In this document: piece after piece, positions 39,385-58,627 of the stretch | Layout: each line of letters starts with the position of its first letter | How positions within the stretch are numbered: position 1 is the stretch's first letter | Notes under the pieces: model-generated | What the model was told of the DNA's origin: nothing | What the model saw: only the letters and a program-made list of their open reading frames with translations | Databases searched by the model: none | Made by a program: the position numbers and the translations under genes | From: Planctomycetota bacterium | GTDB taxonomy: Bacteria; Planctomycetota; PLA2; JAEUHO01 | Length of the DNA: 58,694 nt | Assembly (NCBI GenBank): GCA_030065025.1 | Contig: JASJDY010000055.1 | Coordinates: 1-58,694, forward strand | Direction: 5' to 3'

Positions 39385-39468
39385 GGGAGGGAGGGAGTGT
39401 ACCGAGCCCCACGCAGCCGCAGCTGTGAACGTTCACGAGTTGATGATCGGCCCGCTATCCTCCGCGCC

Positions 39469-40269: not shown

Positions 40270-40302
40270 ACTCTCCACGGCACCTGACCGAGGAGGGTTC
40301 TC

Positions 40303-41256: not shown

Positions 41257-41259
41257 TCT

Positions 41260-41970: not shown

Positions 41971-42127
41971 GAGCGTGAGGTGGCTTCCGCGGTTGATCCC
42001 GCCACATCGCGTCTCTCGTCGATTGCCTATCGACCCCCGAATGCTCCGGCTGAACCGTTCACCCACAATCGCGTCGCACGATGAGACCGACGCGTCAACG
42101 GGAGACGCTATCCGCGTGGGGCTCCGC

Positions 42128-45700: not shown

Positions 45701-45868
45701 TCCTGGGCCCCGGTCGCGGAGCTCCGGGCCAGCCCCCGCGTGCGCTCGATCGCGATCGGCCCGACAGGTCGCTATCTCGCCGCGTCCGTCTACGTGGCCG
45801 ACGGCGCCGTGTGGGACGTCGCGTACCTCCGCCGCGAGCTCGACGTCCTGGGTCTCGACTGGGACTGA
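42716..45868 (+). CDS. Ser/Thr kinase with TM segment and WD40 repeats
   Basis: GQGAFAAVW, VALK, HRDVKPSN, TDFGLA, GTPAYMSPE, DVYSLG; WD-like repeats such as FSPDGRVLASGS and LQGH..SASQDWTLRTW. Confidence 0.93.
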   Translation: MSNAVSPIDETRRREFERQWIEQGHAQIEDHLPERGDPAFSATLIELVCIDMEMRSRLGEPPSVSDYVRAYDFEGEERMRLKEEAAYLARRRIQRGSRIGRYVLEEVRGQGAFAAVWRARDPDLGRVVALKRLRPALATDEEARERFRREARSAARLRHPAIVTVHEVGEDVSGPFLVSDFIPGPTLGDALKKRAYTPDEAAELVTRLADALDYAHQFGIVHRDVKPSNVLLDEAGRPLLTDFGLARLGEADATLTRQGQLLGTPAYMSPEQARGDVDAIDRRSDVYSLGVVLYELLCGRPPFQGETATLFYAVVHKDVPRPRKLRREIPADLETICLKAISREPDRRYPTADALADDLRRYLARQPIEARQAGVLGRVALWARRNPAIAASLVVIAVVVGIAFQRVLTERTRFEDAHRQSQANLYRSLVRQAEAQLALPRGAGREAAWTSVQDATRVETAERDIVELRNLALRYLTAEGPHFREAGRWRSEEKITRLALSPDGTKLAEVGPSGTYLRDAATGSVLRHIAKPARAVSFAPNGATIAVARDRFVHMLDATTLAERASFPCTAPPEAIAFDHAGARVACVSRDGPAEVFALTTDGARRALELPHAGHDVAFGAFDTLTLACVDGGIRQVDLATAEIRWTQHFEEPVRQVVSAGQRVAAFSWERLRFTIFDAQGGGQRHPEGLHEASLRTVAFGPGGYVLTASSDGVVAAYDKQLARTTEQRVAGAIHLAAVGGGRILALDRDGERTLWQMTVPRGRASFSAEHRARFLPGQLRLFDGRRILDCENGLRAVSPTAHADSAVWGVAVDPAGRRLARSTHNGRIELLDATTLERVHLLLPKGPLAWTTAFSPDGRVLASGSGNDVLLFDTESGEMLHRLQGHERFVSGLAFRGDELISASQDWTLRTWSWRSGRALGVLARRTRVYDLHVEGDTVYAACRDGCLRIWEPAHTDPHVVRVGAEPLWAVGPGPGGLIATGSQAGEIHLLAPDSWAPVAELRASPRVRSIAIGPTGRYLAASVYVADGAVWDVAYLRRELDVLGLDWD

Positions 45869-45971
45869 GCCGCTTTTCTCGATTCCGTTGACCGGTTCCG
45901 CGGCGCGACGGCAATGCCCTCCTGCCACCCGTTCGGGTGGAGCCGTGGTGTGCCGGGAGGAGCAGCTCGTG

Positions 45972-46706
45972 ATGTGGATGAAGCGATGTGCGTTGGCCGT
46001 GTTCCTGCTCCTCGCGGCCGCCGCCTTCTCGCAAGAGGCGTGGGCCGACAGCATCACGCTCAAAGGCGGCACGCAGCAGGTAACCGTGACGAACGGCTCC
46101 AGCACGGGCTCAGCGTTCCACACGGCGCCGAATCCCGGGTCTTCTTGGAGTCAGACGACCCAAGCCACCAGGAGCCGTTCGGGGGGCAGCTACGCGAGCA
46201 CGGGCACCCTGATCACGGATCTGGGGCAGACCGAGTTCGATCTCGACATGACGCTGAGCGCCTCTCGCTACCGCAGGGAAGGACGCAGGGGCAGCGCGAC
46301 GGCGTTCGGCACGCTCTACTTCACGGCGGACGAGGCGCTGGACTACACGCTCTCCGGCGGCCTCACACGGACGTCTGGGAGCGGCACGGTGCAGCATCGA
46401 GTCCTGCTCATCGACGACACGGCCAACACCGAGCTCTATAACAGCGGCTACGTCAGCAACAGCACCTCGACGTCGCTCACAGGTGCAGGGCTCACCGGCA
46501 GCCTGATCGCGGGCCACGCCTACAGTCTGTCGTTCGAGTACTTCGCAGGTACGACCGCCCACAACGGATCCATCGCAGCGACCGGTGATCTCCTGCTCTC
46601 GTTCGCAGGCACGGGTTCGCCCGTGCCCGAGCCCGGCACGCTCGCCCTGCTCGGTCTCGGTCTCGGCTGCATCGTCCTGCACCGCCGCCGCGCGCGCGCC
46701 GCCTGA
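45972..46706 (+). CDS. PEP-CTERM sorting-signal protein
   Basis: Signal peptide, Ser/Thr/Gly-rich body, C-terminal VPEPGTLALLGLGLGCIVLHRRRAR. Confidence 0.92.
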   Translation: MWMKRCALAVFLLLAAAAFSQEAWADSITLKGGTQQVTVTNGSSTGSAFHTAPNPGSSWSQTTQATRSRSGGSYASTGTLITDLGQTEFDLDMTLSASRYRREGRRGSATAFGTLYFTADEALDYTLSGGLTRTSGSGTVQHRVLLIDDTANTELYNSGYVSNSTSTSLTGAGLTGSLIAGHAYSLSFEYFAGTTAHNGSIAATGDLLLSFAGTGSPVPEPGTLALLGLGLGCIVLHRRRARAA

Positions 46707-46711
46707 CGTCG

Positions 46712-49700
46712 CTACGGCAGCCCCCACGGCAGCCAAGCCGCCCAGTAGTAGGGATGCGCCCACTTGGCCTGGCTGCGGACGTGGAGCTGCGCTTTGCGCA
46801 ACGCTGCCGCGGGCGCGAGGCCCTTTCCGTCCTGCGGGCTCCATAGCTCGTAGAACTTCACCATGAGCGCGCGCGTCGCCTCGTCGTCAACCCGCCAGAG
46901 TGATCCGATCACGCGTTTGGATCCGGCCATCTGGAAGCCCTGGACCAGACCGATGACGCCTTCGCCGGACTCCGCCTTGCCGAGCGCCGTCTGACAGGCG
47001 GACAGCACGACCAGCTCGACACCGTCGAGGTCGAGGTGAGACGCCTCGAGCGCGGTGAGGATGCCGTCATCGCCATGTCCGCCCGCGCGGGGGTTCGCGC
47101 CGGCCAGCGCCAGACCCGCCAGCAGCATGGGGTCGTGCCCCTGCGCCAGCTTGCGCTCCATGTTCGCGCCGAGCCACGTCCGCTCTTTCCGCCGGCGCGT
47201 CAGTCCGCGCAGGAGGTCGTCGCGGACGAAGCCGTGGGTGGCGAGGTGGAGTACGCGCTTGCCGGCCAGCTGCGAACGAAGGCGGCTCTCCGTCGCCTCC
47301 TTGCCGGAGAGGACCTCCGAGCCGCTGCCGATGCGGTCGCGGATCGCCTCCGTCTCAGCCTTGGTGCCCGCGAGGTACGCGAAGCGCCGTCCCGGAGGGG
47401 GGCGATCCACGAACGTCCGCCCCGTCTGCGCCGTGTCCTTGCCGACGGCCGCCTCGTCGTAGTTCACGCCGCCGAGCAGGAGTGCGCCCGTTCCCGCCGC
47501 TGGCGCATCGGGCCACGGCACGAGATCCTGCGCCATCGAGACTGCCGAGAGCTCGTACTCGTCGATCACGAGACGGCCAGGCGCGGCGCCTGGGAGCGCC
47601 CCAAACGGAACGGCCGCCAGGGCCGCGTCGGGACATACGTGGATCCGGTTGACGGACTTGCCGAGGCGTGCCGCGATCGGATCGAAGATCAGCGCGCGCA
47701 GCGTCTTGCCTGCGTCGCGCCACCCGTCGTCGTCGCTCTCGGGGGCGCTCTCGGCGAACTCGGCGGCAGCCTCTTCGATGGCCTCGGCGTCGCCGAGCTC
47801 CACGCGCACCGGCTGGCCGCGGCGGCCGATGATCCACGCAAGGTAGGTGTCGTCCGAGCGCAGGTACTCGAGCAGCACGGCGTCGGCTTCCAGCCGTGCC
47901 TGGATGTCCGCAAGCGACAGCTGCAGGCGCTCGAGCTTCTGACGCATGGGCGCAAGGTCGCGCTGCAGCGCGAGCGCAAGCTGCTCCCGCTGCGAGGCTG
48001 CGTCGGCGTAGGCCTTCTGCCAGGCAGCCTTCTTCCGCTTGTCCCGTAGCGAGGGCATGGCGTTCGCCAGCTTCGCGAGTCGGCGCTCCGCCTGCTTGAG
48101 GGCGCCGATGCGCGCGCGCGCTTCCTCGTCGGCACCACGAGCGAGTCGTCGCTCCCCCGACTCCGCTCGCGCGATCAGGCCCTTGAAGCGCAGCACCTCG
48201 GCGACACCGGAGCGCTCGATGCGAGGCGCGACCTCGAGCCACGAGGCGAGGTACGTGCGCAAGGACCGCAGCAGTCCGTAGCGCGTCGATGCCTGGAGGC
48301 CGGTCAGTCCCTGCCGGACCTGCTTCTCCGCCACGGAGAGGCAGCGCGTCAGGAGAGAGGCTGCCTGATCGTGCTGACCCTGCTTCAGCAGCACGCGGCC
48401 GAGGTCGTGGAGGCTCATGGCCACGCTGGGGTGCTCCGCGCCGAGGGACTCCTGGCGGATCGTGAGCGCGCGCTCATAGAGCGGACGAGCCTCCGCGTAC
48501 GCGCCCCGCGCCATGTGCAGATCCGCCAGGTTGCGGAGGTCGGCTGCGACCTCGGGGTGTTTCGGTCCGAAGACCTTCTCGTCGATCGCGATGGCTCGTT
48601 CGTAGAGGCGGCGGGCTTCGGCGTACGCGCCGAGGGTGACGAGAAGAGCAGCGAGGTTGTTCAGGCTCATGGCCACGCTGGGGTGCTCGGGGCCAAGAGC
48701 CTTCGTCCGGATCCGGAGCGCCTGCTGGTGAAGCGCCAGGGCCTGCTCGTGATCGCCGACGAAGACGAGCAGCTCGGCCAGGTTGTTCATCGCGGTCGCG
48801 ACTTCGGGATGCTCCTCGCCGTTGGCCTTCCTTCGGATACCAAGCGCTCGCTCGTAGAGCGGTCGGGCTTCCTCGTAGGCACCCTGCGCGACGAGCACCG
48901 CGGCGACGTTGTTCAGACCCGTGGCCACGTCGGGGTGCTCCTTCCCCAGTGCCTTTTCCCAGATCGCCAGGGCACGCTCGCACAGGGGGCGCGCACGTTC
49001 GTACGCGCCCAGCGTCTCCAGCAGCAGCCCGAGGTTGCTGAGGCTCATGGCCACCTCGGTGTGCTCGGGTCCGAGCGCCTTCTCGCGGATCCTGAGCGCG
49101 CGCTCGTAGAGCGGGTGTGCCCCCTCGTAGTCGCCCAGCGCGTCGAGTGCCAGGGCCAGGTTGTCGAGGCACGTCGCGACGTTGCGGTGCTCGCGTCCGA
49201 AGGCGATCTCGAAGATCCGCAGCGCACGCTCGTAGAGCGGGCGAGCCTTCTCGTAGGCTCCCGCGGCGTAGTGCAGCATCCCGAGGTTGTTGAGGGCCGT
49301 CCCGACGGAAGGATGGTCCTTGCCGTGCGCGCGCTCCCAGATGGTGAGGGCGCGTTCGTAGCGCGGCCGCGCCTCGGCGTAGGCGCCCATCGCCTCGAAC
49401 AGCGCGGCGAGGTTGTTGAGCACCCGCGCCACGTTCGGGTCATCAGGACCGTACGTCTTCTCCCAGATCGCGAGCGCGCGCTCGTAGAGCGGACGCGCTT
49501 CCTCGTACTCGCCCAGCGTGCGCAGCAGCGCAGCGAGGTTGTTGAGGCCTGTGCCCACGTCCTCGTGCTCCGGGCCGCTCGCCTTCTCCCAGATCCTCAG
49601 CGCACGTTCGTACAGTGGGCGGGCCTGCTTGTACTCGCCGAGCGCCTCCAGCATGGCCGCCAGGTTGTTGAGACTCGTGGCCACGTCGGGGTGGTCCGGT

Positions 49701-49945
49701 CCGAGTGCGCGCTCGCGCAGCTCGAGCACCTGGCGCGCGACGGGTGCCGCCTCGCGGTACTTGCCCTCGCGGTAGAGCGCCAGCACGCGCTGGTTCCACG
49801 CGCGCGCCATGGAGAGGGCCATGCGCCGCTCGGTCTCCGTCATCTCCCTGGCCGGCTTCTTGGGCTCGTCCTTCGGCTTGTCGTCGGACGCAGCGGGTCC
49901 TGCCATGAGCAGCAGGCAGATGCAGAGTCCCACCAGCGTGCGCAT
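46712..49945 (-). CDS. Secreted TPR-repeat and CHAT (caspase-like) protease
   Basis: Signal peptide; about a dozen 42-aa GPEHPxVAxSLNNLA repeats; LHLATHG and LVVLSACQT dyad; HPYYWAA. Confidence 0.93.
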   Translation of the reverse strand: MRTLVGLCICLLLMAGPAASDDKPKDEPKKPAREMTETERRMALSMARAWNQRVLALYREGKYREAAPVARQVLELRERALGPDHPDVATSLNNLAAMLEALGEYKQARPLYERALRIWEKASGPEHEDVGTGLNNLAALLRTLGEYEEARPLYERALAIWEKTYGPDDPNVARVLNNLAALFEAMGAYAEARPRYERALTIWERAHGKDHPSVGTALNNLGMLHYAAGAYEKARPLYERALRIFEIAFGREHRNVATCLDNLALALDALGDYEGAHPLYERALRIREKALGPEHTEVAMSLSNLGLLLETLGAYERARPLCERALAIWEKALGKEHPDVATGLNNVAAVLVAQGAYEEARPLYERALGIRRKANGEEHPEVATAMNNLAELLVFVGDHEQALALHQQALRIRTKALGPEHPSVAMSLNNLAALLVTLGAYAEARRLYERAIAIDEKVFGPKHPEVAADLRNLADLHMARGAYAEARPLYERALTIRQESLGAEHPSVAMSLHDLGRVLLKQGQHDQAASLLTRCLSVAEKQVRQGLTGLQASTRYGLLRSLRTYLASWLEVAPRIERSGVAEVLRFKGLIARAESGERRLARGADEEARARIGALKQAERRLAKLANAMPSLRDKRKKAAWQKAYADAASQREQLALALQRDLAPMRQKLERLQLSLADIQARLEADAVLLEYLRSDDTYLAWIIGRRGQPVRVELGDAEAIEEAAAEFAESAPESDDDGWRDAGKTLRALIFDPIAARLGKSVNRIHVCPDAALAAVPFGALPGAAPGRLVIDEYELSAVSMAQDLVPWPDAPAAGTGALLLGGVNYDEAAVGKDTAQTGRTFVDRPPPGRRFAYLAGTKAETEAIRDRIGSGSEVLSGKEATESRLRSQLAGKRVLHLATHGFVRDDLLRGLTRRRKERTWLGANMERKLAQGHDPMLLAGLALAGANPRAGGHGDDGILTALEASHLDLDGVELVVLSACQTALGKAESGEGVIGLVQGFQMAGSKRVIGSLWRVDDEATRALMVKFYELWSPQDGKGLAPAAALRKAQLHVRSQAKWAHPYYWAAWLPWGLP

Positions 49946-49964
49946 CGTCCTCCCTCGGAGCGGT

Positions 49965-50636
49965 CTAGAGCTGAGGGAGGATATCGCGCTCCGCGGTCTC
50001 GACGTCCTCGGGGAAGTCGATCTCGGTCCACGGGCGGCCGGCGACCTCGACGTACTGGGCGCCGTGCTCGGCTACGAACGCGTCGAGCGCCGCCTCGTAG
50101 TCGCCCTCCGGGTCGGCCGCGTCGATGCTGGTTCGCAGCGCCGGAAGGGAAGCCGCGTCGAGCTTGAAGAAGCCCACGCCCTCGCCGACGAGATCGAAGC
50201 CGGGGAGCTTGCCGCGGCGGATGGCGCGCACGATGCCGCCCTTCACGCCGATCATCATCTCCTCGTCGCCCGGATCGGTGCGCGGGTCGATCGCGAAGCC
50301 GCGCTCGAGCTGCGTCACGTCGGCGAGGATCGTCGGGTCGTAGAGCACGTCCGCGTCCATCACGACGACGTCCTCGTCCAGACCCTCGAGGCCCGCGGAG
50401 AGCGATAGCAGGCTGCCGCGGCGGAACTCGGGGTTGTGGCGGTGGGCGGTGCCGGGGGCATGCTCGAGCAGCTCCTCGGCCATGAAGCCCGTCACGATGC
50501 GCACGGGCACGTCGAGCGCCGCGAGGTTCTCGAGGTGACGCGAGAGCAACGTGCGACCGCCGATCTCGAGCAGGGCCTTCGGCCGGTCGTCCTTGAGGCG
50601 GCGGCCGACGCCCGCAGCGAGGATCACCGCCCTCAC
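49965..50636 (-). CDS. LicC/PntC-like cytidylyltransferase
   Basis: AVILAAGVGRRL..PKALL, MDADV, WTEIDFPED; last gene of the phosphonate operon. Confidence 0.88.
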   Translation of the reverse strand: MRAVILAAGVGRRLKDDRPKALLEIGGRTLLSRHLENLAALDVPVRIVTGFMAEELLEHAPGTAHRHNPEFRRGSLLSLSAGLEGLDEDVVVMDADVLYDPTILADVTQLERGFAIDPRTDPGDEEMMIGVKGGIVRAIRRGKLPGFDLVGEGVGFFKLDAASLPALRTSIDAADPEGDYEAALDAFVAEHGAQYVEVAGRPWTEIDFPEDVETAERDILPQL

Positions 50637-51691
50637 GAGCGGACTCCGGCCAGAGCATCGGCGAGCCCGTGCAGGCGCTCGTCCGGGATGATGCCCATGT
50701 TGCAGACGCGCCAGGCCGAGGACTCCAGGTCACCCTGGCCTGCGTAGATGACGTAGCCCTTCGAGCGCAGGTGCGCGTGCAGCTTCTCGTACGGCACGCC
50801 CTCGGGCAGGCGCGCGCACGTGATCGTGTTGCTGTGCAGCTCCGGCGGCAGGAGCAGCTCCATGCCCCGATCGGCGAGGATGCCGCGGATGATGCCGGCC
50901 GCCCGCGCGTAGCGGGCCTGGCGCCCCTCGACCGTCTCCTCGATCAGCTCGTCGAGCGCGGCCTCGAAGGCGGCCGTCACCTGGATGGCGGGCGTGAACG
51001 GCGTGCCGCCCGCGCGCTGCTTGGCCAGCTGGTTGCCCATGTCGAAGTAGACCGACCGCGTGCGCAGCTCGGCGCCCTTCTTCACGAGTACGAACGAGAC
51101 GCCCGGCAGGCCCTGGATGCACTTGTTTGCCGTCGAGCACACCGCCGCCGGCTGGATCGCGTCGAAGTCGAACTCCTCGCCGGCGAGGCCGCTCACGCTG
51201 TCGACGAGGAGGCGCCGGCCCGTGCGGTGGGCGATCTCGGCGATGGCCTGCACGTCGTTGAGCAGTCCCACGGTCGTCTCGTGGTGGACGCACGCGATCG
51301 TGTCGAGGCCGTCCTCGAGCGCGTCTTCGATCACCTGCGGGTCGGGGCGATCGGTCCACGGCACCTGCACGACCTTGCAGCGAATGCCGTGCGCCTCGGC
51401 CATTTTGCGCAGGCGATCGCCGTAGACGCCGTTGTCGATCACGAGCACGCCGTCGCCTGCGGCGGAGCAGACCATCATCTCCATGCCCGCCGTGCCCGAG
51501 CCCGAGACCAGCGCGGCCTCGTAGTCCGCCTCGACGCCGAAGGCCTGGACGAGCTTGGCGCGCACGCGCGTCTGCATCTCGAGGTACTCGGGCTCGCGAT
51601 GACACTGGTCCTCGCACTCGGCGAGGGCGCGGCGGACGTTCTCCGAGACGTTGATCGGTCCCGGGTTGAGCAGCGTGAAGGCCTGGCCCAT
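50633..51691 (-). CDS. 2-aminoethylphosphonate transaminase (PhnW/AepZ family)
   Basis: LLNPGP, SGSGTAGME, NGVYG, VHHETTVGLLN, DSVS, ANKCIQGLPG, PFTP, VIYAGQG. Confidence 0.88.
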   Translation of the reverse strand: MGQAFTLLNPGPINVSENVRRALAECEDQCHREPEYLEMQTRVRAKLVQAFGVEADYEAALVSGSGTAGMEMMVCSAAGDGVLVIDNGVYGDRLRKMAEAHGIRCKVVQVPWTDRPDPQVIEDALEDGLDTIACVHHETTVGLLNDVQAIAEIAHRTGRRLLVDSVSGLAGEEFDFDAIQPAAVCSTANKCIQGLPGVSFVLVKKGAELRTRSVYFDMGNQLAKQRAGGTPFTPAIQVTAAFEAALDELIEETVEGRQARYARAAGIIRGILADRGMELLLPPELHSNTITCARLPEGVPYEKLHAHLRSKGYVIYAGQGDLESSAWRVCNMGIIPDERLHGLADALAGVRS

Positions 51692-51696
51692 GCGGT

Positions 51697-52254
51697 CTAA
51701 CCCTGGCAGGCCTGGGCGAAGCGCGCGGTGATCTCGGGGGGCGTGTGCGTGACGCGGCCGATGCCCTTCACGTTGCCCTTCTCGACCTTCACGAGGAGCA
51801 TCGCCGGACCCTCGCGCTCGAGGAACGCCGGCAGCGCGGCCTCGAGCTGGTCGGCCGCGACGCGCTCGGCGTAGGCGTAGCCCGAGGCCTTGGCGATCTG
51901 CTCGAGGTGGATCTTGTCGCTGATCGTGGCCTGGCCGCCGGTCGAGCCGTGCGACTCGTTGTCGAGCACGACGTGGTGCAGGTTCTTGAGGTCCAGCGCG
52001 CCGGCGCTGGCGAGCACGCCGGCGCCCATGAGCACGTTCCCGTCGCCGTCGAGGCACAGCACCTTCTTGTCGGGCTGCGTCACGGCGACGCCGATGGCGA
52101 TCGAGAGGCCGAGGCCCATCGAGCCGATCATGTAGAAGTTCTGTCCGCGGTCTTCGGCCGTGAACGCCTCGCGCCCGATCATGCCGTTGCACACGACGGT
52201 GGGGCGGTCGTCCAGCGCCTTCATGACGATCGCTGCGGCTTCAGCTCGACGCAT
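51697..52254 (-). CDS. Phosphonopyruvate decarboxylase beta subunit (ComE-like)
   Basis: NFYMIGSMG, TPP-binding DGDGNVLM...LDNESHGSTGGQ. Confidence 0.88.
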   Translation of the reverse strand: MRRAEAAAIVMKALDDRPTVVCNGMIGREAFTAEDRGQNFYMIGSMGLGLSIAIGVAVTQPDKKVLCLDGDGNVLMGAGVLASAGALDLKNLHHVVLDNESHGSTGGQATISDKIHLEQIAKASGYAYAERVAADQLEAALPAFLEREGPAMLLVKVEKGNVKGIGRVTHTPPEITARFAQACQG

Positions 52255-52759
52255 CGAGGATCCCCTTCGCGACGATCAAGGCGCCCGGCACCTTGCGCTC
52301 GTCGATCTCCTTGGTGATGGCGGCGACGTCCTCGGCGATCGTGTCGGGATTCAGGATCCGCCAGGGCAGGCCCTTCATCTCGCCGAGCGTGATGTTGTCG
52401 AAGTAGCTCGTCATGATCTCGCCCATGACGAGGTGCTCGGGCGCGTCCTGGCCGTCCTTGCCGCGCCACGACACGACGATCAGCGTGGGGATCTCGTAGA
52501 TCACGTCCAGGCTGACGATGGCGTTGAGCGCGACGCCCAGGCCGCTGTTCTGCATGAACACGGCCGGCTTCTTGCCCGCCATGAACGCGCCGGCGGCCAT
52601 GCCCAGCGCGGAGTCCTCGCGGACCGCGCTGATGTAGCCCCACTCCGGCTCTTCGTCGAAGCGGCGGATCACGCCCTTGAGCAGGGAGCACGGCACGCCT
52701 GCGTAGAAGTCGTAGCCGTTGGCCTGCATGGCCTCCAGGAACTCGGTCGTCTGCGGCAT
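52241..52759 (-). CDS. Phosphonopyruvate decarboxylase alpha subunit (ComD-like)
   Basis: GVPCSLLK, REDSALGMAAG, MQNSGLG, SWRG..DAPEH..MG. Confidence 0.88.
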   Translation of the reverse strand: MPQTTEFLEAMQANGYDFYAGVPCSLLKGVIRRFDEEPEWGYISAVREDSALGMAAGAFMAGKKPAVFMQNSGLGVALNAIVSLDVIYEIPTLIVVSWRGKDGQDAPEHLVMGEIMTSYFDNITLGEMKGLPWRILNPDTIAEDVAAITKEIDERKVPGALIVAKGILDASS

Positions 52760-52766
52760 CCCTCGC

Positions 52767-54389
52767 CTACCTCATCTGCGCCCAGGCGCGCTGGTAGTCC
52801 TCGAACGTGTCGATCTCCATCCAACCCTTGTAGGTGTCGATCGTGTTCACGGTCAGGCCCTTGTCGACGAGGGCCTGCAGGAGATCGGTGAGCGCGGCCG
52901 TGGCCAGGCTCTCGGCCTCGTGGACCGGGCCCTCGTCCAGGCCCTCGTACAGCTCGCGTAGCCCCTCGGCGCCCTTCTTCGAGAGCATCAGCATGCCGAT
53001 CCACTCGCCGTTCGGGTCTTCGATCCGCTGGCCGATGCGCTCGAGCGTGTCGCTGCGCGTGCCCTTGAGGAAGCGCTGCCCCGAGCCGGTCTCGCCGTTC
53101 ACGGTGTGGACGAGGTCGCGGTTCGGACGACCCTCGAGGTTCGAGCGGTCCACGACAAGCACGACGTCGCCCTCGGACTGCAGGAGGCGCTCGACCATCT
53201 CCTGGTCGAAGAGGATGTCGCCGTAGAGCACGAGCGTGCGCCGGTCGAGCTCGCCGGCGGCCTCCATGAGCGAGGCCACCTCGCCCTGCGAGGAGTCCGC
53301 GCTGTAGGTCTTGAGGTTCGGGAGGTCGACCGCCTCCTTCTTGTAGCCCACCACGACGGAGATGTCCTTGATGCCGGCCGCGTTGAGCGCGTCGACCTGA
53401 TGGCCGAGGACGGGCTTGCCCTTCACGTCGAGCATCGCCTTCGGGCGGTCCTGCGTGAGCTCGCCGAGCTCGGGGCTCGCGCCCGCCGCGAGGATCACCG
53501 CGCCGACGCGCTGGCCGCCCGACGGCATGAAGGTCTTCTCGTCGGCCTTCATCTGCGGCACGCCGATGAGCTCGTACACGTCGTTCTTCGGCACGACGAG
53601 GTCGTCGACCGACGCGCACGTCTGCTCGCGCGCGATCGTGGCTAGCGCCTCGCGCTGCGCCTTGATGCCGGAGCGCAGGACGTGGTTCGCGTAGATGACG
53701 ATCTGGTAGCCGCCGTCGTAGAGGGTCTGCGCCGACGTCGTCTTGTAGATCGTCGGCACGCAGACGAGCGGCGTGTCGCGGTCCCACTGCTCCGCGAAGC
53801 CGAGCACCTCGTCGGGCTCCGTGGACTTGCTGTGCACGAGCACGAAGTCCGCGCCGGCGTCGGCGTAGGCCCGGCCGCGCATCAGCGCCTCCTCCATGCC
53901 CCACCCGGCAATGAGCGCCTCGGTGCGGGCGATGACGAGGAAGTCGTCGCTCGTGCGCGTGTCGAGAACCGCCTTCACCTTGCCGGCGTGCTCCTCGACG
54001 GGGGCCAGCTCGCGCTTCACGCCCGCATAGAACGAGCAGCGCTTCGGGAAGACGTTGTCCTCGATGCAGACCGCCGAGATGCCTTCGCTCTCATAGGCCT
54101 TCACCATGTGGATGACGTTGATGGCGTTGCCGTAGCCGTTGTCGCAGTCGGCGATGACGGGGATGTCGATGGACTTCACCATCCAGGACGCCGCGCCGAG
54201 TTGCTCGGCCATCGTGAGGATGTTGGCGTCCGGGACGCAGTGTGCCGCCGAGATCTCGAAGCCCGAGGCCCAGACCGCGTCGAAGCCGGCCTCCTCGACG
54301 AGCTTCGCCGTCATCCCGTTGTGGGCTCCGGCCACCAGCAGCGGCCCCGGCTGAGACAGCCGCTCCCTCAGGCGTCGTTTCGCGTCCAT
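52767..54389 (-). CDS. pepM: PEP mutase-like enzyme fused to a C-terminal cytidylyltransferase
   Basis: GAHNG, WASGFEISA, PDAN, ADCDNGYGN, EDNVFPKRCS, IARTEALIAG, VHSK, VPT; then VILAAG..DRPKAML..YGDILF..WMEIDTFEDY. Confidence 0.85.
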   Translation of the reverse strand: MDAKRRLRERLSQPGPLLVAGAHNGMTAKLVEEAGFDAVWASGFEISAAHCVPDANILTMAEQLGAASWMVKSIDIPVIADCDNGYGNAINVIHMVKAYESEGISAVCIEDNVFPKRCSFYAGVKRELAPVEEHAGKVKAVLDTRTSDDFLVIARTEALIAGWGMEEALMRGRAYADAGADFVLVHSKSTEPDEVLGFAEQWDRDTPLVCVPTIYKTTSAQTLYDGGYQIVIYANHVLRSGIKAQREALATIAREQTCASVDDLVVPKNDVYELIGVPQMKADEKTFMPSGGQRVGAVILAAGASPELGELTQDRPKAMLDVKGKPVLGHQVDALNAAGIKDISVVVGYKKEAVDLPNLKTYSADSSQGEVASLMEAAGELDRRTLVLYGDILFDQEMVERLLQSEGDVVLVVDRSNLEGRPNRDLVHTVNGETGSGQRFLKGTRSDTLERIGQRIEDPNGEWIGMLMLSKKGAEGLRELYEGLDEGPVHEAESLATAALTDLLQALVDKGLTVNTIDTYKGWMEIDTFEDYQRAWAQMR

Positions 54390-54493
54390 GTGCACGGCCC
54401 CCCGCTTGGAAATGCCAAGCGCAAGAGTGTAGGTCCGGCCGGGCGAACGGGAGAGGGGCGCGCGACGGCGAGGGGATCGGGCCGCCGGGGGCC

Positions 54494-54534
54494 AAAAATG
54501 GAATAAGGCGCGCCCCGGTGAAGGGGCGCGCCTT
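54494..54534 (-). terminator. Intrinsic terminator
   Basis: 12-bp perfect stem AAGGCGCGCCCC/GGGGCGCGCCTT followed on the minus strand by ATTCCATTTTT. Confidence 0.75.
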
Positions 54535-54691
54535 GCAGAGACCGGTCCGGTGGGCGCGGGGCGCCGGGAGGGAGGGTAGGGAGGGAGGAGGGATGGCGCA
54601 CACGCGCACCCGTCCGGTCCGGTCCCGATCTGGTCAAAGAGCCGCGGAGTGGGGCTTCCTCCTTGCGAAGGGTGCCTCCCTCAGCGATGCA
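54494..54691 (-). ncRNA. Candidate sigma54-dependent sRNA with CU-rich loop
   Basis: Bounded by a sigma54 promoter and a terminator; hairpins; 29-nt CU loop; no credible ORF. Confidence 0.55.
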
Positions 54692-54701
54692 CCCAACGTA
54701 C

Positions 54702-54717
54702 AGCGAAATGCGTGCCA
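54702..54717 (-). promoter_or_regulatory. Sigma54 -24/-12 promoter
   Basis: TGGCAC-GCATT-TCGCT (GG-N10-GC). Confidence 0.75.
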
Positions 54718-55007
54718 CGTCGGGCCGACCAAGGCCCCGCATCAAATGGGCCTCTCCGGGGCATCGATGGGGCCTGGGTGCGAGAAAGTGCAACACCGGC
54801 TGTACTCATCGGGCGAATTCCGCACGCCGGTTTGACATTCCACAATCCGCGAGCGAGCCCGCACGGTGGGGTCTCGGGACCCCATTCCCGATCCCGGCGG
54901 GGTGTTCGCGTCAGGGGCTGGAGTCCGCCCTGCCTCATGCCGGACTCCGTATACTCGGGCCAGCCCCAGGAAGCGCGCGGCCCCCTGCCGCGCCCAGGGA
55001 GGCCGTC

Positions 55008-56612
55008 ATGCGGATATCCGTCCTCGCCCTCGTTGCAGCCGCTCTGCTCCTCGCGCCCGCCGGCACGGTGCGCGCCGAGGACGTGGCCGACGCCGACCGC
55101 CATACCGCCAAGGTGCGCCACCTGCTACGCCGCGCGACGTTCGGGCCGCGTCCCGGCGACGTCGAGGCGGTCAAGACGATCGGCATCGAGGCGTGGCTCG
55201 ACCGGCAGCTCGCGCCGCAGACGATCCCCGATCCGGAGGTCGAGAAGCGCCTCGAGGGCTATGCGACGCTCAAGCTGACGCCGGAGGAGTACGTCGCCCG
55301 ACTGCGCGGCGCGAGCATGAACCGCGACCAGGGTCCGCCCAAGAAGGGCGAGGATCGCTTTGCCAAGGCGCGCCGCACCCAGGCCGAGCTCAACCGCCTG
55401 CGCAACCAGGCCGCCCGCGAGGTGCCGCGCGCCATCCTCATGGAGGCCGTCTACAGCGAGCGTCAGCTCGAGCAGGTGATGGCCGAGTTCTGGCGGAACC
55501 ACTTCAACGTCGACATCACGAAGGACGACGTCCGCTACTACATCCCCGACTACGAGCGCGTCATCCAGCGGGGCATGTTCGGCAAGTTCGAAGACCTGCT
55601 GATGAGCACGGCCAAGCACCCGGCCATGCTCTTCTACCTCGACAACCACGTCTCGCAGGCGCCGATGGCGCGCGCCGAGAGGGTGGCCCAGGGGCGCGAG
55701 GACGAGAGCCGCACGGGTGGCCTCAACGAGAACTACGCGCGCGAGCTGATGGAGCTGCACACGGTCGGTGCCGACAACGGCTACGACCAGGACGACGTCA
55801 TCCAGCTCTCGCTCGTGCTCACAGGCTGGTCGATCCAGAACGGCAAGTTCCACTTCCGCGAGAACTACCACGCTCGCGGCCGCAAGCGCGTCATGCGCAA
55901 GACCTTCAAGCCCGCCGGGGTCGAGGAGGGCGAGGCCGTCGTCCGCTTCCTCGCGCGCCACAAGCTCACGCGACAGTACGTCGTCGGCAAGATGGCGCGC
56001 TACCTCCAGGCCGACGAGCCGAGCGAGAAGCTCATCGCCGACGTGTGCAAGGTCTGGGCGAAGACCAAGGGCGACCTCCGGGCCGTCACGAAGGCGATCC
56101 TCATGCACGACGACTTCTACGCGAAGTCGAGCGTGCTCACGAAGGCGAAGACCCCCTTCGAGTACGTCGTGAGCGCCATGCGCGTCACCGGTGCCGACGT
56201 CCGGGATATGGGCGGCGTCATGCAGCGCCTGGGCGACATGGGTCAGCCCGTGCTGCGCCAGGAGGACCCGACCGGCTACAGCGACGCCGCCGTCGACTGG
56301 ATGGACACGGGCGTCCTCGCCGTGCGCTGGCAGTTCGCCTTCGACCTGCTGAACAACCGCATCCCCGGCGTGAAGGTCGACGGGAGCCCGCTCTTCGAGC
56401 ACCTGCGGCAGAAGCCGGAGGTGTGGGAGTACCTGATGCAGGACGCGCTCTTCGCGGGCGAGCGTCCCGGCTCCCTGACCATGGCGCCCTTCCGGCGCCG
56501 CGTGAACGACGTCCGTCGCAACTACCGCAAGATGCGCATCGCGGAGCTGCGCAAGGAATACAGCATCCTGGCCACGCTGCTGCTCGGCTCGCCCGAGTTC
56601 CAGCGCCAGTAG
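55008..56612 (+). CDS. DUF1800 family protein
   Basis: HLLRRATFG, FWRNHF, PAMLFYLDN, NENYARELMELHTVG, LTGW, KTPFE, SPEFQ; GGAGG RBS. Confidence 0.93.
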   Translation: MRISVLALVAAALLLAPAGTVRAEDVADADRHTAKVRHLLRRATFGPRPGDVEAVKTIGIEAWLDRQLAPQTIPDPEVEKRLEGYATLKLTPEEYVARLRGASMNRDQGPPKKGEDRFAKARRTQAELNRLRNQAAREVPRAILMEAVYSERQLEQVMAEFWRNHFNVDITKDDVRYYIPDYERVIQRGMFGKFEDLLMSTAKHPAMLFYLDNHVSQAPMARAERVAQGREDESRTGGLNENYARELMELHTVGADNGYDQDDVIQLSLVLTGWSIQNGKFHFRENYHARGRKRVMRKTFKPAGVEEGEAVVRFLARHKLTRQYVVGKMARYLQADEPSEKLIADVCKVWAKTKGDLRAVTKAILMHDDFYAKSSVLTKAKTPFEYVVSAMRVTGADVRDMGGVMQRLGDMGQPVLRQEDPTGYSDAAVDWMDTGVLAVRWQFAFDLLNNRIPGVKVDGSPLFEHLRQKPEVWEYLMQDALFAGERPGSLTMAPFRRRVNDVRRNYRKMRIAELRKEYSILATLLLGSPEFQRQ

Positions 56613-56634
56613 CGCCTCACCCCAAGGAGACGCC

Positions 56635-57933
56635 ATGTCCAACACCCGTCGTGAAGTCCTGGCAGCCGGCGCCGCCGGCCTTGCCGGCCTGACCGCCTAC
56701 GGCTCGCTCGCGAAGCACGCGCACGCCGCTCCCGAGAAGGAGATCGCAGTCCGCCCCGCGGTCGTCGTGATCTACCTGCGCGGTGGGCAGGACGCGCTCA
56801 ACGCGCTCGTGCCGTACACCGAGGGCCGCTACTACGACATGCGCCCGAACATCGCGGTGCCGACGCCCGACAAGGAGAACGGCTGCATCGATCTCGACGG
56901 CACGTTCGGCCTGCATCCTGCGCTCACCGGCTTCAAGACGCTGTGGGACAAGAAGCTGCTCGCGCCGATCGTGAACGCCGGCGTGAACTCGCCTTCGCGC
57001 AGCCACTTCCAGATGCAGGACTTCATGGAGCAGGGGCGCATGCGCAACTCGCCCGTCCGCTCCGGGTGGCTCAACCGCTATCTCACGGCGACGTCCGCCG
57101 GCGAGCACGAGGCGGACTTCCGTGCGCTGGCGCTGCAGAGCCGCCTGCCGCGCTCGATGCGCGGCAAGTTCCCGGCGCTGGCCGTGGCGCCGAGCCGCGC
57201 GCGCGGCCGCACGCGCGACAAGGACAGCGACGTGCTCGAGCTGTTCGACAAGCTCTACAAGAAGCCGCCCTCCATGGAGGGCGCGGGCATGAAGTCCGAG
57301 CGTCCCGACGCCGACGAGCTCACCCAGAACGGTCGCGCGACGATCGACGCGCTCCGGAAGCTCGAGGAGATCCTGACGCAGAAGCCCGCCGGCAAGGAGG
57401 TCCGCTACCCCGCCACGGCCGGCGGCATGGGCCGCCAGCTGAAGATGGCTGCGCGCCTGCTGAAGTCCGGCCAGGGCGTCCAGGCCATCGCCATCGACCG
57501 CAACGGCTGGGACCACCACATCAACCAAGGCAGTGTCAACGAGCAGGACATCTTCTATCGGATGCTGCGCGAGGTCGGCACGGCCGTCTCGACCTTCTAC
57601 GAAGACATCCAGTTCATGAAGAACATGGTCACCACGGTGATCATGACCGAGTTCGGCCGCACGAACCGTGAGAACGGCAACAACGGCACCGACCACGGCC
57701 ACGGCGGCCTGATGTGGTTGGTCGGCGGCAAGGTCAACGGCGGCAAGGTGTACGGCGACTGGACCGGCCTGGCCCCGGGGCAGACCTACCAGAACCGCGA
57801 CCTGCTCGTCACGACCGACTGGCGCGACGTGCTGAGCGAGGTCCTGTACGACCACCTGCGGCTGCACCCGTCGAAGCAGGTCTTCGGCAAGTTCACCCCG
57901 CGAGAGCAAAAGCTCGGGTTGTTCAAGACCTAG
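56635..57933 (+). CDS. DUF1501 family protein with Tat signal
   Basis: TRREVL Tat motif; LRGGQDALN, GLHPAL, RSHF, GWDHH, TEFGR..ENGNNGTDHG. Confidence 0.93.
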   Translation: MSNTRREVLAAGAAGLAGLTAYGSLAKHAHAAPEKEIAVRPAVVVIYLRGGQDALNALVPYTEGRYYDMRPNIAVPTPDKENGCIDLDGTFGLHPALTGFKTLWDKKLLAPIVNAGVNSPSRSHFQMQDFMEQGRMRNSPVRSGWLNRYLTATSAGEHEADFRALALQSRLPRSMRGKFPALAVAPSRARGRTRDKDSDVLELFDKLYKKPPSMEGAGMKSERPDADELTQNGRATIDALRKLEEILTQKPAGKEVRYPATAGGMGRQLKMAARLLKSGQGVQAIAIDRNGWDHHINQGSVNEQDIFYRMLREVGTAVSTFYEDIQFMKNMVTTVIMTEFGRTNRENGNNGTDHGHGGLMWLVGGKVNGGKVYGDWTGLAPGQTYQNRDLLVTTDWRDVLSEVLYDHLRLHPSKQVFGKFTPREQKLGLFKT

Positions 57934-58021
57934 GTCTTGTACAACCTGATTGCCTCTTCGCCTGAGGCCGACGGGTCGTGATCCGCGAGGATCACGGCCC
58001 GTTCTTATGTGAGGGGTCGCC

Positions 58022-58627
58022 TCAGTCCGAGAGATCCACCTTCGGAGCCTCGCGCTGCGAGCTGTCTTCGATCTCGAAGAACTCCTTCTTCTGGAAGCCG
58101 TACATCGACGCCAGGAGGTTGCTCGGGAAGGTCTCGATGCGGTTCGCGAGGTCGCGCACGTTGGCGTTGTAGAAGCGTCGCGCGCGCTGGATGCGGTTCT
58201 CCGTCGTCGTCAGCTCCTCCTGGAGCGACAGGAAGCTGCGGTTCGCCTTGAGGTCGGGGTAGCCCTCGACGACAGCGAAGAGCTGGCGCAGGCCGCCGAC
58301 GAGGTTGTTCTCGTCGCGCGCCTGGTCCTCGGGCGTGCCCTCGTTGGACGCGGCCCGGTTGCGCGCCTCGATGACGCGCTCGAACGTATCGCGCTCGTGC
58401 TCCGCGTAGCCCTTGACCGTCTTCACGAGGTTGGGGATCAGGTCGTAGCGGCGCTTGAGCTCCGTCTCGACGCCCGACCACGACTCGTCGCAGTGGTTGC
58501 GCGTGCGGACGAGGCCGTTGTAGATGCCGATCGCCCAGAGCAGGAAGAGGACGACGGCGCCGATGCCGACGTAGAGACCGATGGGGGCTTGGGCGAGAAC
58601 GGGAGCGGCGAGCGAGGTCAGGGCCAT
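58022..58627 (-). CDS. lemA: LemA family protein
   Basis: YNGLV, LKRRYDLIPNLV, EGYPDLKAN, ENRI..ARRFYN, FPSNLLA. Confidence 0.95.
   Translation of the reverse strand: MALTSLAAPVLAQAPIGLYVGIGAVVLFLLWAIGIYNGLVRTRNHCDESWSGVETELKRRYDLIPNLVKTVKGYAEHERDTFERVIEARNRAASNEGTPEDQARDENNLVGGLRQLFAVVEGYPDLKANRSFLSLQEELTTTENRIQRARRFYNANVRDLANRIETFPSNLLASMYGFQKKEFFEIEDSSQREAPKVDLSD

What the first reader, a model, noticed from the sequence alone, without database searches (positions are those of the whole stretch)
54033..54062. PEP mutase with non-canonical catalytic loop EDNVFPKRCS
Seen: the loop reads EDNVFPKRCS. Known: PepM is normally recognised by EDKxxxxxNS, while ICL-superfamily lyases carry K[KR]CGH with a catalytic Cys. 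Here the internal Lys is kept, but K becomes N and the conserved Asn becomes Cys. Inference: gene context argues for a real mutase, so motif-filtered surveys of phosphonate producers would miss this clade. Alternatively it performs different chemistry.
Basis: partly seen in the sequence, partly recalled or inferred. Interest (0 to 1): 0.75.

Follow-up and report, generated by a model that had tools for sequence, protein, structure and literature searches.

The report
PEP mutase with a lyase-type cysteine loop
This gene most likely makes the carbon-phosphorus bond of phosphonates like a normal PEP mutase, but its catalytic loop carries a cysteine where the textbook signature demands asparagine, so a widespread group of phosphonate producers escapes the usual motif filter.

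Summary
Window 54033..54062 (minus strand) encodes EDNVFPKRCS in a 540/542-aa fusion of a PEP-mutase domain and an NTP-transferase domain. This gene heads a tight five-gene operon: pepM-like/ntp, split ppd alpha and beta, AEP transaminase, and a second PntC-like NTP transferase.

The loop is not a one-off. 119 of the 120 listed homologues and 27 of 27 genome loci, from several phyla, carry ED[N/A]xFPKRCS. Every other PepM active-site residue checked is kept. The loop differences match the lyase pattern of E. coli PrpB (EDQVGAKRCGH), and the Cys aligns with PrpB Cys123.

In three trees these proteins lie outside the canonical EDKx5NS clade, with moderate support. None of the 28 genomes examined has a canonical PepM, yet all 28 have Ppd. 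More distant stand-alone Cys-type relatives sit next to Ppd, a NifV-like synthase or an Ldh_2 dehydrogenase.

In genome samples, 24 of 38 PepM-like genes in Planctomycetota and 6 of 35 in Myxococcota are Cys-type. The gene scores below the TIGR02320 cut-off. I found no description of the clade in print.

Verdict: a real but uncharacterised PepM variant that keeps an ancestral-looking loop. The role of the Cys is open.

The parts
52767..54395 (-). Gene for a PEP-mutase-like domain fused to an NTP-transferase domain. 542 aa from GTG 54395; more likely 540 aa from ATG 54389.
   Evidence: ORF list and translation. PF13714 at 180.7 bits over residues 10-254 and PF12804 at 60 bits over residues 299-418. 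The 540-aa database copy P0002 is 100% identical.
53520..54395 (-). PEP-mutase-like domain (residues 1-292).
   Evidence: phmmer against PDB: 5unc PepM 6.5e-87, PPH 2dua 1.7e-71, Mytilus PepM 7.9e-65, methylisocitrate lyases 1e-31 and weaker. AF2 model pLDDT 96.4. Foldseek TM 0.96 to 5unc.
54033..54062 (-). Gating-loop motif EDNVFPKRCS, the reported finding.
   Evidence: Conserved in 119 of 120 homologues and 27 of 27 loci.
54036..54038 (-). TGC codon of the loop Cys. It takes the place of Asn122 of Mytilus PepM and aligns with Cys123 of E. coli PrpB.
   Evidence: The title of 1xg3 names the C123S mutant of PrpB.
52767..53519 (-). C-terminal NTP-transferase domain (LicC/MobA-like) of the fusion.
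   Evidence: PF12804 and PF00483. Best PDB hits are 2ggo at 5.7e-11 and LicC 1jyk at 2.3e-10.
52241..52759 (-). Phosphonopyruvate decarboxylase-like alpha subunit (N-terminal TPP domain).
   Evidence: TIGR03297 at 125.7 bits over profile positions 1-157, against sulfopyruvate decarboxylase alpha at 112.1.
51697..52254 (-). Phosphonopyruvate decarboxylase-like beta subunit (C-terminal TPP domain). It overlaps the alpha gene by 14 nt.
   Evidence: TIGR03297 at 173.5 bits over profile positions 171-358, against sulfopyruvate decarboxylase beta at 152.1.
50633..51691 (-). 2-aminoethylphosphonate transaminase-like gene (352 aa).
   Evidence: TIGR03301 PhnW-AepZ at 294.7 bits, cut-off 360.8. Start found.
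49965..50636 (-). Second NTP transferase, PntC-like. It overlaps the transaminase stop by 4 nt.
   Evidence: PF12804. The best solved relative is 6pd1 (Tde1415, nucleotidyl transferase/aminotransferase) at 1.2e-9 over residues 2-222.
54486..54650 (-). Conserved structured RNA-like element upstream of the operon: a long stem around a C-rich region, then a GC hairpin with a U tract. This is a side finding.

Best explanation
The gene encodes a working PEP mutase (PEP to phosphonopyruvate) of an uncharacterised, deep-branching lineage. Its mobile gating loop keeps the lyase-type arrangement: Asn/Gln at 116, Arg121, Cys122 and a basic residue at 130 (Mytilus numbering). The barrel carries the PepM/PPH-specific residues Trp44, Ser123 and His190, and the full Mg2+ site.

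Inferred pathway: the unfavourable mutase equilibrium is pulled by the adjacent split phosphonopyruvate decarboxylase. The transaminase then makes 2-aminoethylphosphonate. The fused and the separate NTP transferase activate it, or a derivative, as a nucleotide conjugate (CMP-AEP type) for attachment to an unknown lipid or glycan.

Shown here: the sequence features, their conservation, the synteny, the absence of any other PepM candidate, and the position in the tree. Inferred: the activity itself, the product, and that Cys takes over the phosphoryl-holding role of Asn122 rather than acting as an acid/base.
For: - Similarity to solved structures follows the order PepM > PPH > lyases, in sequence (6.5e-87, 1.7e-71, 1e-31 and weaker) and in fold (TM 0.96, 0.93, 0.87-0.90).
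- Across 14 clade rows, W44, S46, D58, D85, D87, E114, K120, S123, R159 and H190 are invariant. PrpB has Y, G and E at positions 44, 123 and 190.
- The operon is tight, with Ppd alpha and beta, AEPT and a PntC-like gene.
- Synteny across 27 loci from Planctomycetota, Myxococcota, Binatia, Thermodesulfobacteriota, Auribacterota and others: Ppd alpha+beta in 22 (plus 1 cut at a contig end), AEPT in 18, the second NTP transferase in 21.
- All 5 genomes whose fetched locus lacked a complete adjacent Ppd have Ppd elsewhere. One is a full-length Ppd at 486.7 bits, over its cut-off.
- No alternative source of phosphonopyruvate was found. The own genome (89% complete) has one PF13714 hit over the cut-off. 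In 27 of 27 related genomes the clade member is the best TIGR02320 hit, none exceeds the cut-off, and second hits reach at most 142.7 bits. The three second hits that were read carry lyase-type EDQ..KKCG[H/F].
- Each of the 73 sampled genomes with a PepM-like gene has either a Cys-type or a canonical one, never both.
- Stand-alone Cys-type relatives sit beside three different enzyme types that can plausibly consume phosphonopyruvate: split Ppd (L106), a NifV-like homocitrate synthase at 466 bits (L108), and an Ldh_2 dehydrogenase with sulfolactate-dehydrogenase likeness (L107).
- The PepM-NTP_transf_3 fusion with a second PntC is a published architecture of AEP clusters (PMC6697681 and PMC8942020, passages read).
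Against: - The residue replaced, Asn122, is thought to help hold the phosphoryl group.
- It is also the position to which most authors attribute the difference between mutase and phosphonopyruvate hydrolase (Asn to Thr), according to the review PMC7916636 (passages read). A change there could change the reaction.
- The Cys aligns with Cys123 of PrpB, the residue replaced in the C123S mutant structure 1xg3. From my own knowledge, not from any call, this Cys is the catalytic acid/base of the lyases. Such a Cys could protonate the pyruvate enolate and favour hydrolysis.
- All three pathway enzymes score below NCBIfam's curated cut-offs: PepM 273.9 against 319.55; Ppd halves 125.7 + 173.5 against 312.5; AEPT 294.7 against 360.8.
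- The split Ppd also resembles sulfopyruvate decarboxylase ComDE (112.1 and 152.1 bits).
- No member has been assayed.
- The backbone of the tree is only moderately supported (SH-aLRT 88-91).
Confidence: 0.8

Rival explanations
1. The domain is not a mutase. It is a hydrolase or lyase of the PPH or ICL type that uses the loop Cys as general acid to protonate C3 of pyruvate enolate (phosphonopyruvate or PEP to pyruvate + Pi, or cleavage of another 2-oxo acid).
For: - Cys occupies the column of PrpB Cys123, and Arg119 and Lys118 are in register with KRC.
- PPH differs from PepM at this same position (PMC7916636 passages).
- The TIGR02321 score (253.9) is close to the TIGR02320 score (273.9).
Against: - A hydrolase placed first in an operon with Ppd, AEPT and PntC would destroy the pathway's substrate.
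- No other PepM was found in 28 of 28 genomes, all of which have Ppd.
- Lyase-specific residues are absent: Tyr at 44, Gly-His after the Cys, and Glu at 190.
- prpB models score 169.5 against a cut-off of 354.4.
Confidence: 0.07
2. The whole operon works on a different, analogous substrate. One example is a sulfonate route through sulfopyruvate, sulfoacetaldehyde and taurine, which would use the ComDE-like split decarboxylase.
For: - The decarboxylase is split like ComD/ComE and matches TIGR03845 and TIGR03846 at 112.1 and 152.1 bits.
- All three core enzymes fall below the phosphonate equivalog cut-offs.
- Recalled, not from a call: sulfopyruvate binds the PepM active site in entry 1m1b.
Against: - Both decarboxylase halves score higher on the Ppd model (125.7 and 173.5).
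- The transaminase's best model is PhnW-AepZ.
- The residues that bind the phosphoryl group (R159, H190, S123) are kept.
- I know of no reaction by which a PepM-like enzyme makes sulfopyruvate (own knowledge).
- One clade genome pairs the Cys-type enzyme with a full-length Ppd that scores over its cut-off.
Confidence: 0.04
3. The PepM-like domain is catalytically dead and serves only as an oligomerisation scaffold for the fused NTP transferase.
For: Two residues of the signature motif are missing.
Against: - All metal and substrate ligands, and the Cys itself, are invariant across sequences down to 48% identity.
- Stand-alone Cys-type genes without any fusion lie next to Ppd or a NifV-like synthase.
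- There is no other source of phosphonopyruvate in these genomes.
Confidence: 0.03

Closest known systems
Canonical PEP mutase (PepM/Ppm, EC 5.4.2.9; Mytilus edulis 1pym/1m1b, Streptomyces platensis 5unc; TIGR02320)
   Same: - Same fold: TM 0.93-0.96, 36-49% identity.
- Same Mg2+ ligands, and the same W44, S46, K120, S123, R159 and H190.
- Same fusion to an NTP_transf_3 domain, and the same ppd/AEPT/PntC neighbourhood as published AEP clusters.
   Different: - The loop reads EDNVFPKRCS, not EDKx5NS: K116N, T121R, N122C.
- Clade-specific T88N, Q130R and F276Y.
- Below the TIGR02320 cut-off.
- Branches outside the clade that holds all canonical sequences.
Phosphonopyruvate hydrolase (PPH, Variovorax 2dua/2hjp; TIGR02321)
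   Same: - Same PepM-type barrel residues and loop frame (EDKTFPKDTS).
- It too departs from PepM at the Asn122 position.
- TM 0.93.
   Different: - PPH keeps EDK and has Thr, not Cys.
- In the trees it nests inside the canonical clade (rows P0179 and P0226, with EDK..KD[T/S]S).
- PPH is catabolic (own knowledge). Here the context is biosynthetic, with Ppd.
- Scores 253.9 against a cut-off of 374.4.
2-methylisocitrate lyase / isocitrate lyase (PrpB 1mum/1xg3; signature K[KR]CGH)
   Same: - The loop is in register: PrpB E115-D116-Q117-x3-K121-R122-C123 against window E112-D113-N114-x3-K118-R119-C120.
- Both have a basic residue at Mytilus position 130 (K in PrpB, R here).
- KKCGH is called the ICL active-site signature in the abstract of PMC5430663 (search listing).
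   Different: - No Gly-His after the Cys (Ser-Phe instead).
- Trp not Tyr at 44, and His not Glu at 190.
- 24-28% identity, TM 0.87-0.90.
- TIGR02317 scores 169.5 against a cut-off of 354.4.
Ppm-PntC fusion clusters for AEP decoration (Rice et al. 2019 PMC6697681; Li & Horsman 2022 PMC8942020, for example the 'Burkholderiales_CDP-OH' group)
   Same: Ppm fused to PF12804, plus a second PntC, Ppd and AEPT (passages read). The second NTP transferase here is most like Tde1415 (6pd1), the PntC solved in Rice 2019.
   Different: - Those inventories kept only EDKX5NS sequences. Rice et al. removed 22 fused sequences that lacked the motif.
- Here Ppd is split in two genes.
- No oxygenase or phospholipid gene is in the operon.

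Membership tests
PEP mutase (PepM/Ppm) as operationally defined: TIGR02320 equivalog and EDKx5NS | ICL/PEP-mutase superfamily domain (PF13714) | tested here: met
   180.7 bits against a cut-off of 31.5, residues 10-254.
PEP mutase (PepM/Ppm) as operationally defined: TIGR02320 equivalog and EDKx5NS | Score over the curated equivalog cut-off of TIGR02320 | tested here: not met
   273.9 bits against 319.55. 0 of 27 related genomes exceed it.
PEP mutase (PepM/Ppm) as operationally defined: TIGR02320 equivalog and EDKx5NS | Signature motif EDKx5NS | tested here: not met
   EDNVFPKRCS: Lys to Asn and Asn to Cys. The motif is used as a filter in PMC6697681, PMC8942020 and PMC12723261.
PEP mutase (PepM/Ppm) as operationally defined: TIGR02320 equivalog and EDKx5NS | Mg2+ site (D58, D85, D87, E114) and the substrate/phosphoryl residues W44, S46, K120, S123, R159, H190 | tested here: met
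   All present in the window protein and invariant in 14 of 14 clade rows. Only Asn122 of the phosphoryl-contacting set is replaced.
PEP mutase (PepM/Ppm) as operationally defined: TIGR02320 equivalog and EDKx5NS | Placement inside the clade of canonical PepMs | tested here: not met
   The canonical clade excludes it in all three trees: FastTree support 99, IQ-TREE SH-aLRT 91, and 88 with the loop columns removed.
PEP mutase (PepM/Ppm) as operationally defined: TIGR02320 equivalog and EDKx5NS | Genomic coupling to an enzyme that consumes phosphonopyruvate | tested here: met
   Split Ppd lies 7 nt downstream. Ppd is in 22 of 27 loci, with a 23rd cut at a contig end, and elsewhere in all 5 genomes whose fetched locus lacked a complete one.
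PEP mutase (PepM/Ppm) as operationally defined: TIGR02320 equivalog and EDKx5NS | Catalysis of PEP to phosphonopyruvate | not testable with these tools
   Needs an enzyme assay. No characterised member was found.
Phosphonopyruvate hydrolase (TIGR02321) | Score over the curated cut-off; Thr at the Asn122 position with EDK kept | tested here: not met
   253.9 bits against 374.4. Cys, not Thr, and EDN, not EDK.
Isocitrate / methylisocitrate lyases | K[KR]CGH signature and lyase-type barrel residues; score over TIGR02317 or TIGR01346 | tested here: not met
   KRC is present but followed by Ser-Phe. W44 and H190 stand in place of Tyr and Glu. Scores are 169.5 against 354.4 and 37 against 275.9.
PntC-type phosphonate nucleotidyltransferase (fused domain and gene 49965..50636) | LicC/MobA-like NTP-transferase fold in a phosphonate cluster; likeness to Tde1415 | tested here: inconclusive
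   PF12804 in both. The separate gene matches 6pd1 at 1.2e-9 over its full length. The fused domain matches LicC 1jyk at 2.3e-10 only over its N-terminal 60 residues. Substrate not tested.

The most novel reading that the evidence does not exclude
Cys-type PepMs are a surviving intermediate between the C-C lyases and the canonical mutases, and the retained lyase Cys takes part in chemistry rather than merely replacing Asn122. One possibility is a transient S-phosphocysteine, that is double displacement instead of the dissociative metaphosphate route. Another is a thiol that gates or redox-switches C-P bond formation. Either would be a mechanistically distinct way of making the C-P bond. It would also mean that EDKx5NS marks one clade and is not a functional requirement.
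Probability: 0.15. Interest if true: 0.8.

Novelty: new variant of a known kind. Interest (0 to 1): 0.6.

Why it matters
PepM is the marker gene for nearly all surveys of phosphonate biosynthesis, and EDKx5NS is the usual filter.

If the Cys-type proteins are active mutases, strict-motif surveys undercount producers. In the genome samples examined here, 24 of 38 PepM-like genes in Planctomycetota and 6 of 35 in Myxococcota would be discarded. Marine-sediment and soil lineages would then have to be added to the phosphonate budget.

For enzymology, the clade is a natural experiment. It pairs a PepM barrel with a lyase-type gating loop, and the lyase Cys sits at the position that separates mutase from hydrolase. 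It therefore bears directly on how mutase activity arose in the ICL superfamily, and on whether Asn122 is really essential.

Tried and rejected
- Literature. I found no paper describing an EDN..KRCS PepM. The search for 'PKRCS' gave 2 unrelated papers. I also ran the searches EDKX5NS, EDKXXXXXNS, 'phosphoenolpyruvate mutase'+motif+EDK, pepM+Planctomycet+'phosphonate biosynthesis', and PepM+'canonical motif'+Ppd. The one supplement of PMC6697681 held as text has none of the terms KRCS, Sorangium or Planctomyc. Other supplements could not be seen and may list the 22 fused sequences that lack the motif. Subscription-journal papers are not in the library.
- Expression: no RNA holder listed for the operon. 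Only DNA runs labelled marine sediment, marine or mangrove metagenome hold it. No reads were laid.
- Sigma-70 promoter scan of 49700..54900: 0 sites.
- Rfam on 54300..55100: only a 20-bit match to a terminator-like 3' end, far below the gathering score.
- Structure. The AF2 model confirms the fold. No coordinates are returned, so the position of the Cys relative to the substrate could not be measured. The loop block 121-130 has the lowest pLDDT (77).
- Monophyly of the fused Cys lineage is not established. It has support 91 in FastTree, but the lineage is unresolved in both IQ-TREE runs. No AU test and no 'careful' search was run.
- Rows dropped from the trees: 15 of the 150 representatives with fewer than 240 aligned residues. 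For the IQ-TREE runs I hand-picked 31 of the 89 canonical rows.
- The first regex passes missed some motifs. They were redone with looser patterns.
Full report
**1. Observation**

The minus strand of 54033..54062 reads GAG GAC AAC GTC TTC CCG AAG CGC TGC TCG, which is EDNVFPKRCS. It lies in an ORF at 54395..52767 (542 aa from GTG). The ATG at 54389 gives 540 aa, the length of the identical database copy.

Pfam finds PEP_mutase (PF13714, 180.7 bits, residues 10-254) followed by NTP_transf_3 (PF12804, residues 299-418).

Against solved structures the N-terminal 292 residues match as follows:
- PepM of Streptomyces platensis, 5unc: 6.5e-87
- Phosphonopyruvate hydrolase, 2dua: 1.7e-71
- Mytilus PepM, 1m1b: 7.9e-65
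- Methylisocitrate lyases: 1e-31 and weaker

These alignments have no gap at the loop. EDNVFPKRCS therefore stands against EDKRFPKVNS, EDKTFPKDTS and EDKLFPKTNS, and window residue n equals Mytilus residue n+2.

**2. The loop is a conserved state of a large clade**

- All 120 listed homologues are PepM-NTP_transf_3 fusions at 55-100% identity (2902 hits among the 8000 candidates scored, lengths 298-949 aa only). They come from Planctomycetota, Myxococcales and Sorangium records where named.
- 119 of the 120 have ED[N/A]xFPKRCS and one has EDNSFPKRRS.
- 27 of 27 genome loci at 48-87% identity have EDNxFPKRCS. Their titles name Planctomycetota, Byssovorax, Myxococcales, Deltaproteobacteria, Thermodesulfobacteriota, Binatia, an Alphaproteobacteria MAG and Auribacterota.
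- Among the best 150 representatives of 50%-identity clusters (8514 hits at E ≤ 0.001), 98 carry EDKx5NS, 21 carry Cys-Ser at the Asn-Ser position, 2 are lyase-like (KRCG, KRCA), and 29 are other variants such as EDN..KRNS.

**3. What differs and what does not**

I compared 14 clade rows with 89 canonical rows.

- Conserved in both sets: W44, S46, D58, D85, D87, E114, D115, K120, S123, R159 and H190. These are invariant in the 14 clade rows. In the canonical rows S46, D87 and H190 have a few exceptions.
- Clade-specific: T88N, K116N, N122C, Q130R and F276Y, with Arg fixed at 121.
- E. coli PrpB reads EDQVGAKRCGH. In the same columns it has Q116, R121, C122 and K130, but Y44, G123 and E190.
- So the clade joins a PepM/PPH-type barrel to a lyase-type gating loop, and its Cys is the positional counterpart of PrpB Cys123. 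That residue is the one replaced in the C123S structures 1xg3/1xg4.
- Across all 144 rows, K116 goes with Q or H at 130, and N116 mostly with R at 130, whether position 122 is Asn or Cys. This looks like a relocated positive charge on the loop (inference).

**4. Phylogeny**

Three trees were rooted on PrpB:
- FastTree, 144 rows
- IQ-TREE quick, LG+C20, 86 rows
- The same 86 rows with the loop columns (window residues 112-131) removed

In all three, the canonical sequences fall in one group that contains no Cys-type row. Support is 99, 91 and 88. PPH-like rows nest inside that group. The fused Cys-type lineages lie just outside it, as one clade in FastTree (support 91) and unresolved in IQ-TREE. 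Stand-alone EDN..KRCS and EDN..KRNS proteins and the lyase-like rows lie nearer the root.

With the loop shared with the outgroup, the simplest reading is that EDN/KRC is the older state and EDK/NS a derived signature of one successful clade. This is an inference. It depends on a single long outgroup and on moderate supports.

**5. Does it make phosphonopyruvate?**

The genomic evidence is consistent and comes from several directions.

(a) *The operon.*
- The pepM-like/ntp gene comes first. After a 7-nt gap comes Ppd alpha.
- Ppd beta overlaps Ppd alpha by 14 nt.
- After a 5-nt gap comes an AEP transaminase, whose best model is TIGR03301.
- A second NTP transferase overlaps the transaminase by 4 nt. 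Its best solved relative is the PntC enzyme Tde1415, 6pd1.
- Sources.

(b) *Synteny.* The order recurs across phyla. Ppd alpha+beta are in 22 of 27 loci (a 23rd is cut by the contig end), AEPT in 18, and the second transferase in 21. All 5 genomes whose fetched locus lacked a complete adjacent Ppd encode Ppd elsewhere. One is a full-length copy at 486.7 bits, over its cut-off.

(c) *No other source of phosphonopyruvate.* The own assembly (89% complete) has a single PF13714 hit over the cut-off. In 27 of 27 related genomes the clade member is the top TIGR02320 hit (226.9-300.9 bits) and nothing exceeds the cut-off. Second hits reach at most 142.7 bits, and the three that were read carry EDQ..KKCG[H/F].

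(d) *Mutual exclusion.*
- In an even sample of 401 Planctomycetota genomes, 38 have a PepM-like gene at E ≤ 1e-50. 24 are Cys-type and 14 canonical.
- In 301 Myxococcota genomes, 35 have one. 6 are Cys-type and 29 canonical.
- No genome has both kinds.

(e) *Different coupling enzymes.* Three stand-alone Cys-type genes in Planctomycetota have these neighbours:
- L106: a fatty-acid desaturase and then split Ppd.
- L108: a NifV-like homocitrate synthase (466 bits). From my own knowledge, this is the enzyme type used as phosphonomethylmalate synthase.
- L107: an Ldh_2 dehydrogenase with sulfolactate-dehydrogenase likeness, plus an AMP-binding enzyme.

The last two readings are inferences from family names.

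**6. Mechanism**

The best-supported reading (about 0.8) is an ordinary PepM reaction pulled by Ppd, followed by AEP formation and nucleotidyl activation. The acceptor is unknown, because no transferase is in the operon.

What the Cys does is open. According to the review PMC7916636 (passages read):
- Arg159 and His190, and hypothetically Asn122 and Ser123, contact the phosphonyl oxygens of a metaphosphate-like intermediate.
- Most authors attribute the PepM/PPH difference to Asn122Thr on the mobile loop.

A thiol could simply replace the amide as a hydrogen-bond donor. It could also act as in the lyases, which would favour hydrolysis; that is the main rival, which context makes unlikely. Or it could form a phosphocysteine, the novel case at about 0.15.

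The AF2 model is confident (pLDDT 96.4; loop block 77) and closest to PepM (TM 0.96 to 5unc). No coordinates were available to measure distances.

**7. Known or new?**

- Rice 2019 (PMC6697681), Li & Horsman 2022 (PMC8942020) and a 2025 actinomycete survey (PMC12723261) keep only EDKX5NS sequences. Rice et al. report 22 fused sequences removed for lacking the motif (passages read).
- Acker et al. (bioRxiv 10.1101/2020.11.04.368217, passages read) accept sequences that lack up to two motif residues if Ppd or MpnS lies within 5 kb. That rule would keep this gene, but in the passages read the variant is not described.
- NCBI names relatives only 'isocitrate lyase/phosphoenolpyruvate mutase family protein', while JGI calls them phosphoenolpyruvate phosphomutase.
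- My searches found no description or assay of the Cys-type loop. The library lacks most subscription journals.

I therefore class it as a new variant of a known kind. It works like a PepM and is its close homologue, but it fails three operational membership tests: the motif, the equivalog cut-off, and placement in the canonical clade.

**8. Side finding**

Upstream of the operon, 54486..54650 (minus strand) holds a conserved structured element. A long stem (GGGACCGG...CCGGTCTC) encloses a C-rich region, followed by a 12-bp GC hairpin with a U tract.

- The C-rich word is unique in the genome.
- A covariance model built from 5 sequences finds the element upstream of the pepM-like gene in further relatives that were not used to build it: L003 at 103 bits, L009 at 60, L014 at 28.8, L013 at 23.9.
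- 14 of 34 pairs show changes on both sides, and 96.4% of cells pair against 39-55% in the slid controls. That alignment was fitted to the model, so it leans toward the structure.
- No Rfam family matches.

Noticed in passing
window 54486..54650 (-); also L004 7556-7719, L006 9746-9911, L016 3776-3943, L005 7036-7195, L003 9268-9436, L009 3362-3507: Conserved structured RNA-like element upstream of the pepM-like operon in related Planctomycetota. A long stem surrounds a C-rich region (CCCTCCTCCCTCCCTACCCTCCCTC) and is followed by a terminator-like GC hairpin with a U tract. 14 of 34 pairs have compensatory changes. No Rfam family matches, and the C-rich word is unique in the genome. It could be a leader attenuator or an independent sRNA. 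The distance to the start codon varies from about 100 to 560 nt.
   Followed up: partly
window 49965..54395 (-): All three core enzymes of the operon fall below NCBIfam's curated equivalog cut-offs: PepM 273.9 against 319.55, the two Ppd halves 125.7 + 173.5 against 312.5, AEPT 294.7 against 360.8. Ppd is split into two overlapping genes, like sulfopyruvate decarboxylase ComDE. The whole pathway module looks like a divergent lineage, not only the mutase.
   Followed up: partly
L108 7852-9871 (-) and L107 5233-8770 (-): More distant stand-alone Cys-type PepM-like genes (EDNAFPKRCS, EDSRHPKRCS) lie next to other genes. L108 has a NifV-like homocitrate synthase with an MFS transporter and a ketoacyl synthase. 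L107 has an Ldh_2 dehydrogenase with an AMP-binding enzyme. These are possible non-AEP phosphonate clusters in Planctomycetota.
   Followed up: partly
L106 1118-5845: A stand-alone Cys-type PepM (EDNPFPKECS) is followed by a fatty-acid desaturase and split Ppd, with an acyltransferase and a methyltransferase on the opposite strand. This hints at a phosphonolipid product.
   Followed up: no
representatives P0150, P0160, P0163, P0207, P0216, P0257 and others: A further set of PepM-like proteins has EDN/EDH/EDQ..KRNS: Asn is kept but the first Lys is lost. They too would fail the strict EDKx5NS filter. Their contexts were not examined.
   Followed up: no
window 42716..49945 and 54663..58627: The neighbours are typical of Planctomycetota-like genomes: a Ser/Thr kinase with WD40 repeats (42716-45868 +), a PEP-CTERM protein (45888-46706 +), a 1077-aa TPR-CHAT protein directly downstream of the operon on the same strand (46712-49945 -), a DUF1800/DUF1501 pair (54663-57933 +) and LemA (58022-58627 -).
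   Followed up: no
window 1..42600: The rest of the window holds chromosomal housekeeping genes: TruA-like pseudouridine synthase, RpoN, RecR, DnaE, SecA, dihydroorotate dehydrogenase, signal peptidase II, a Xer-type integrase, transaldolase, aldehyde dehydrogenase, and a sigma-54 activator with FHA and GAF domains. The phosphonate operon therefore sits in core chromosome, not on an evident island.
   Followed up: no
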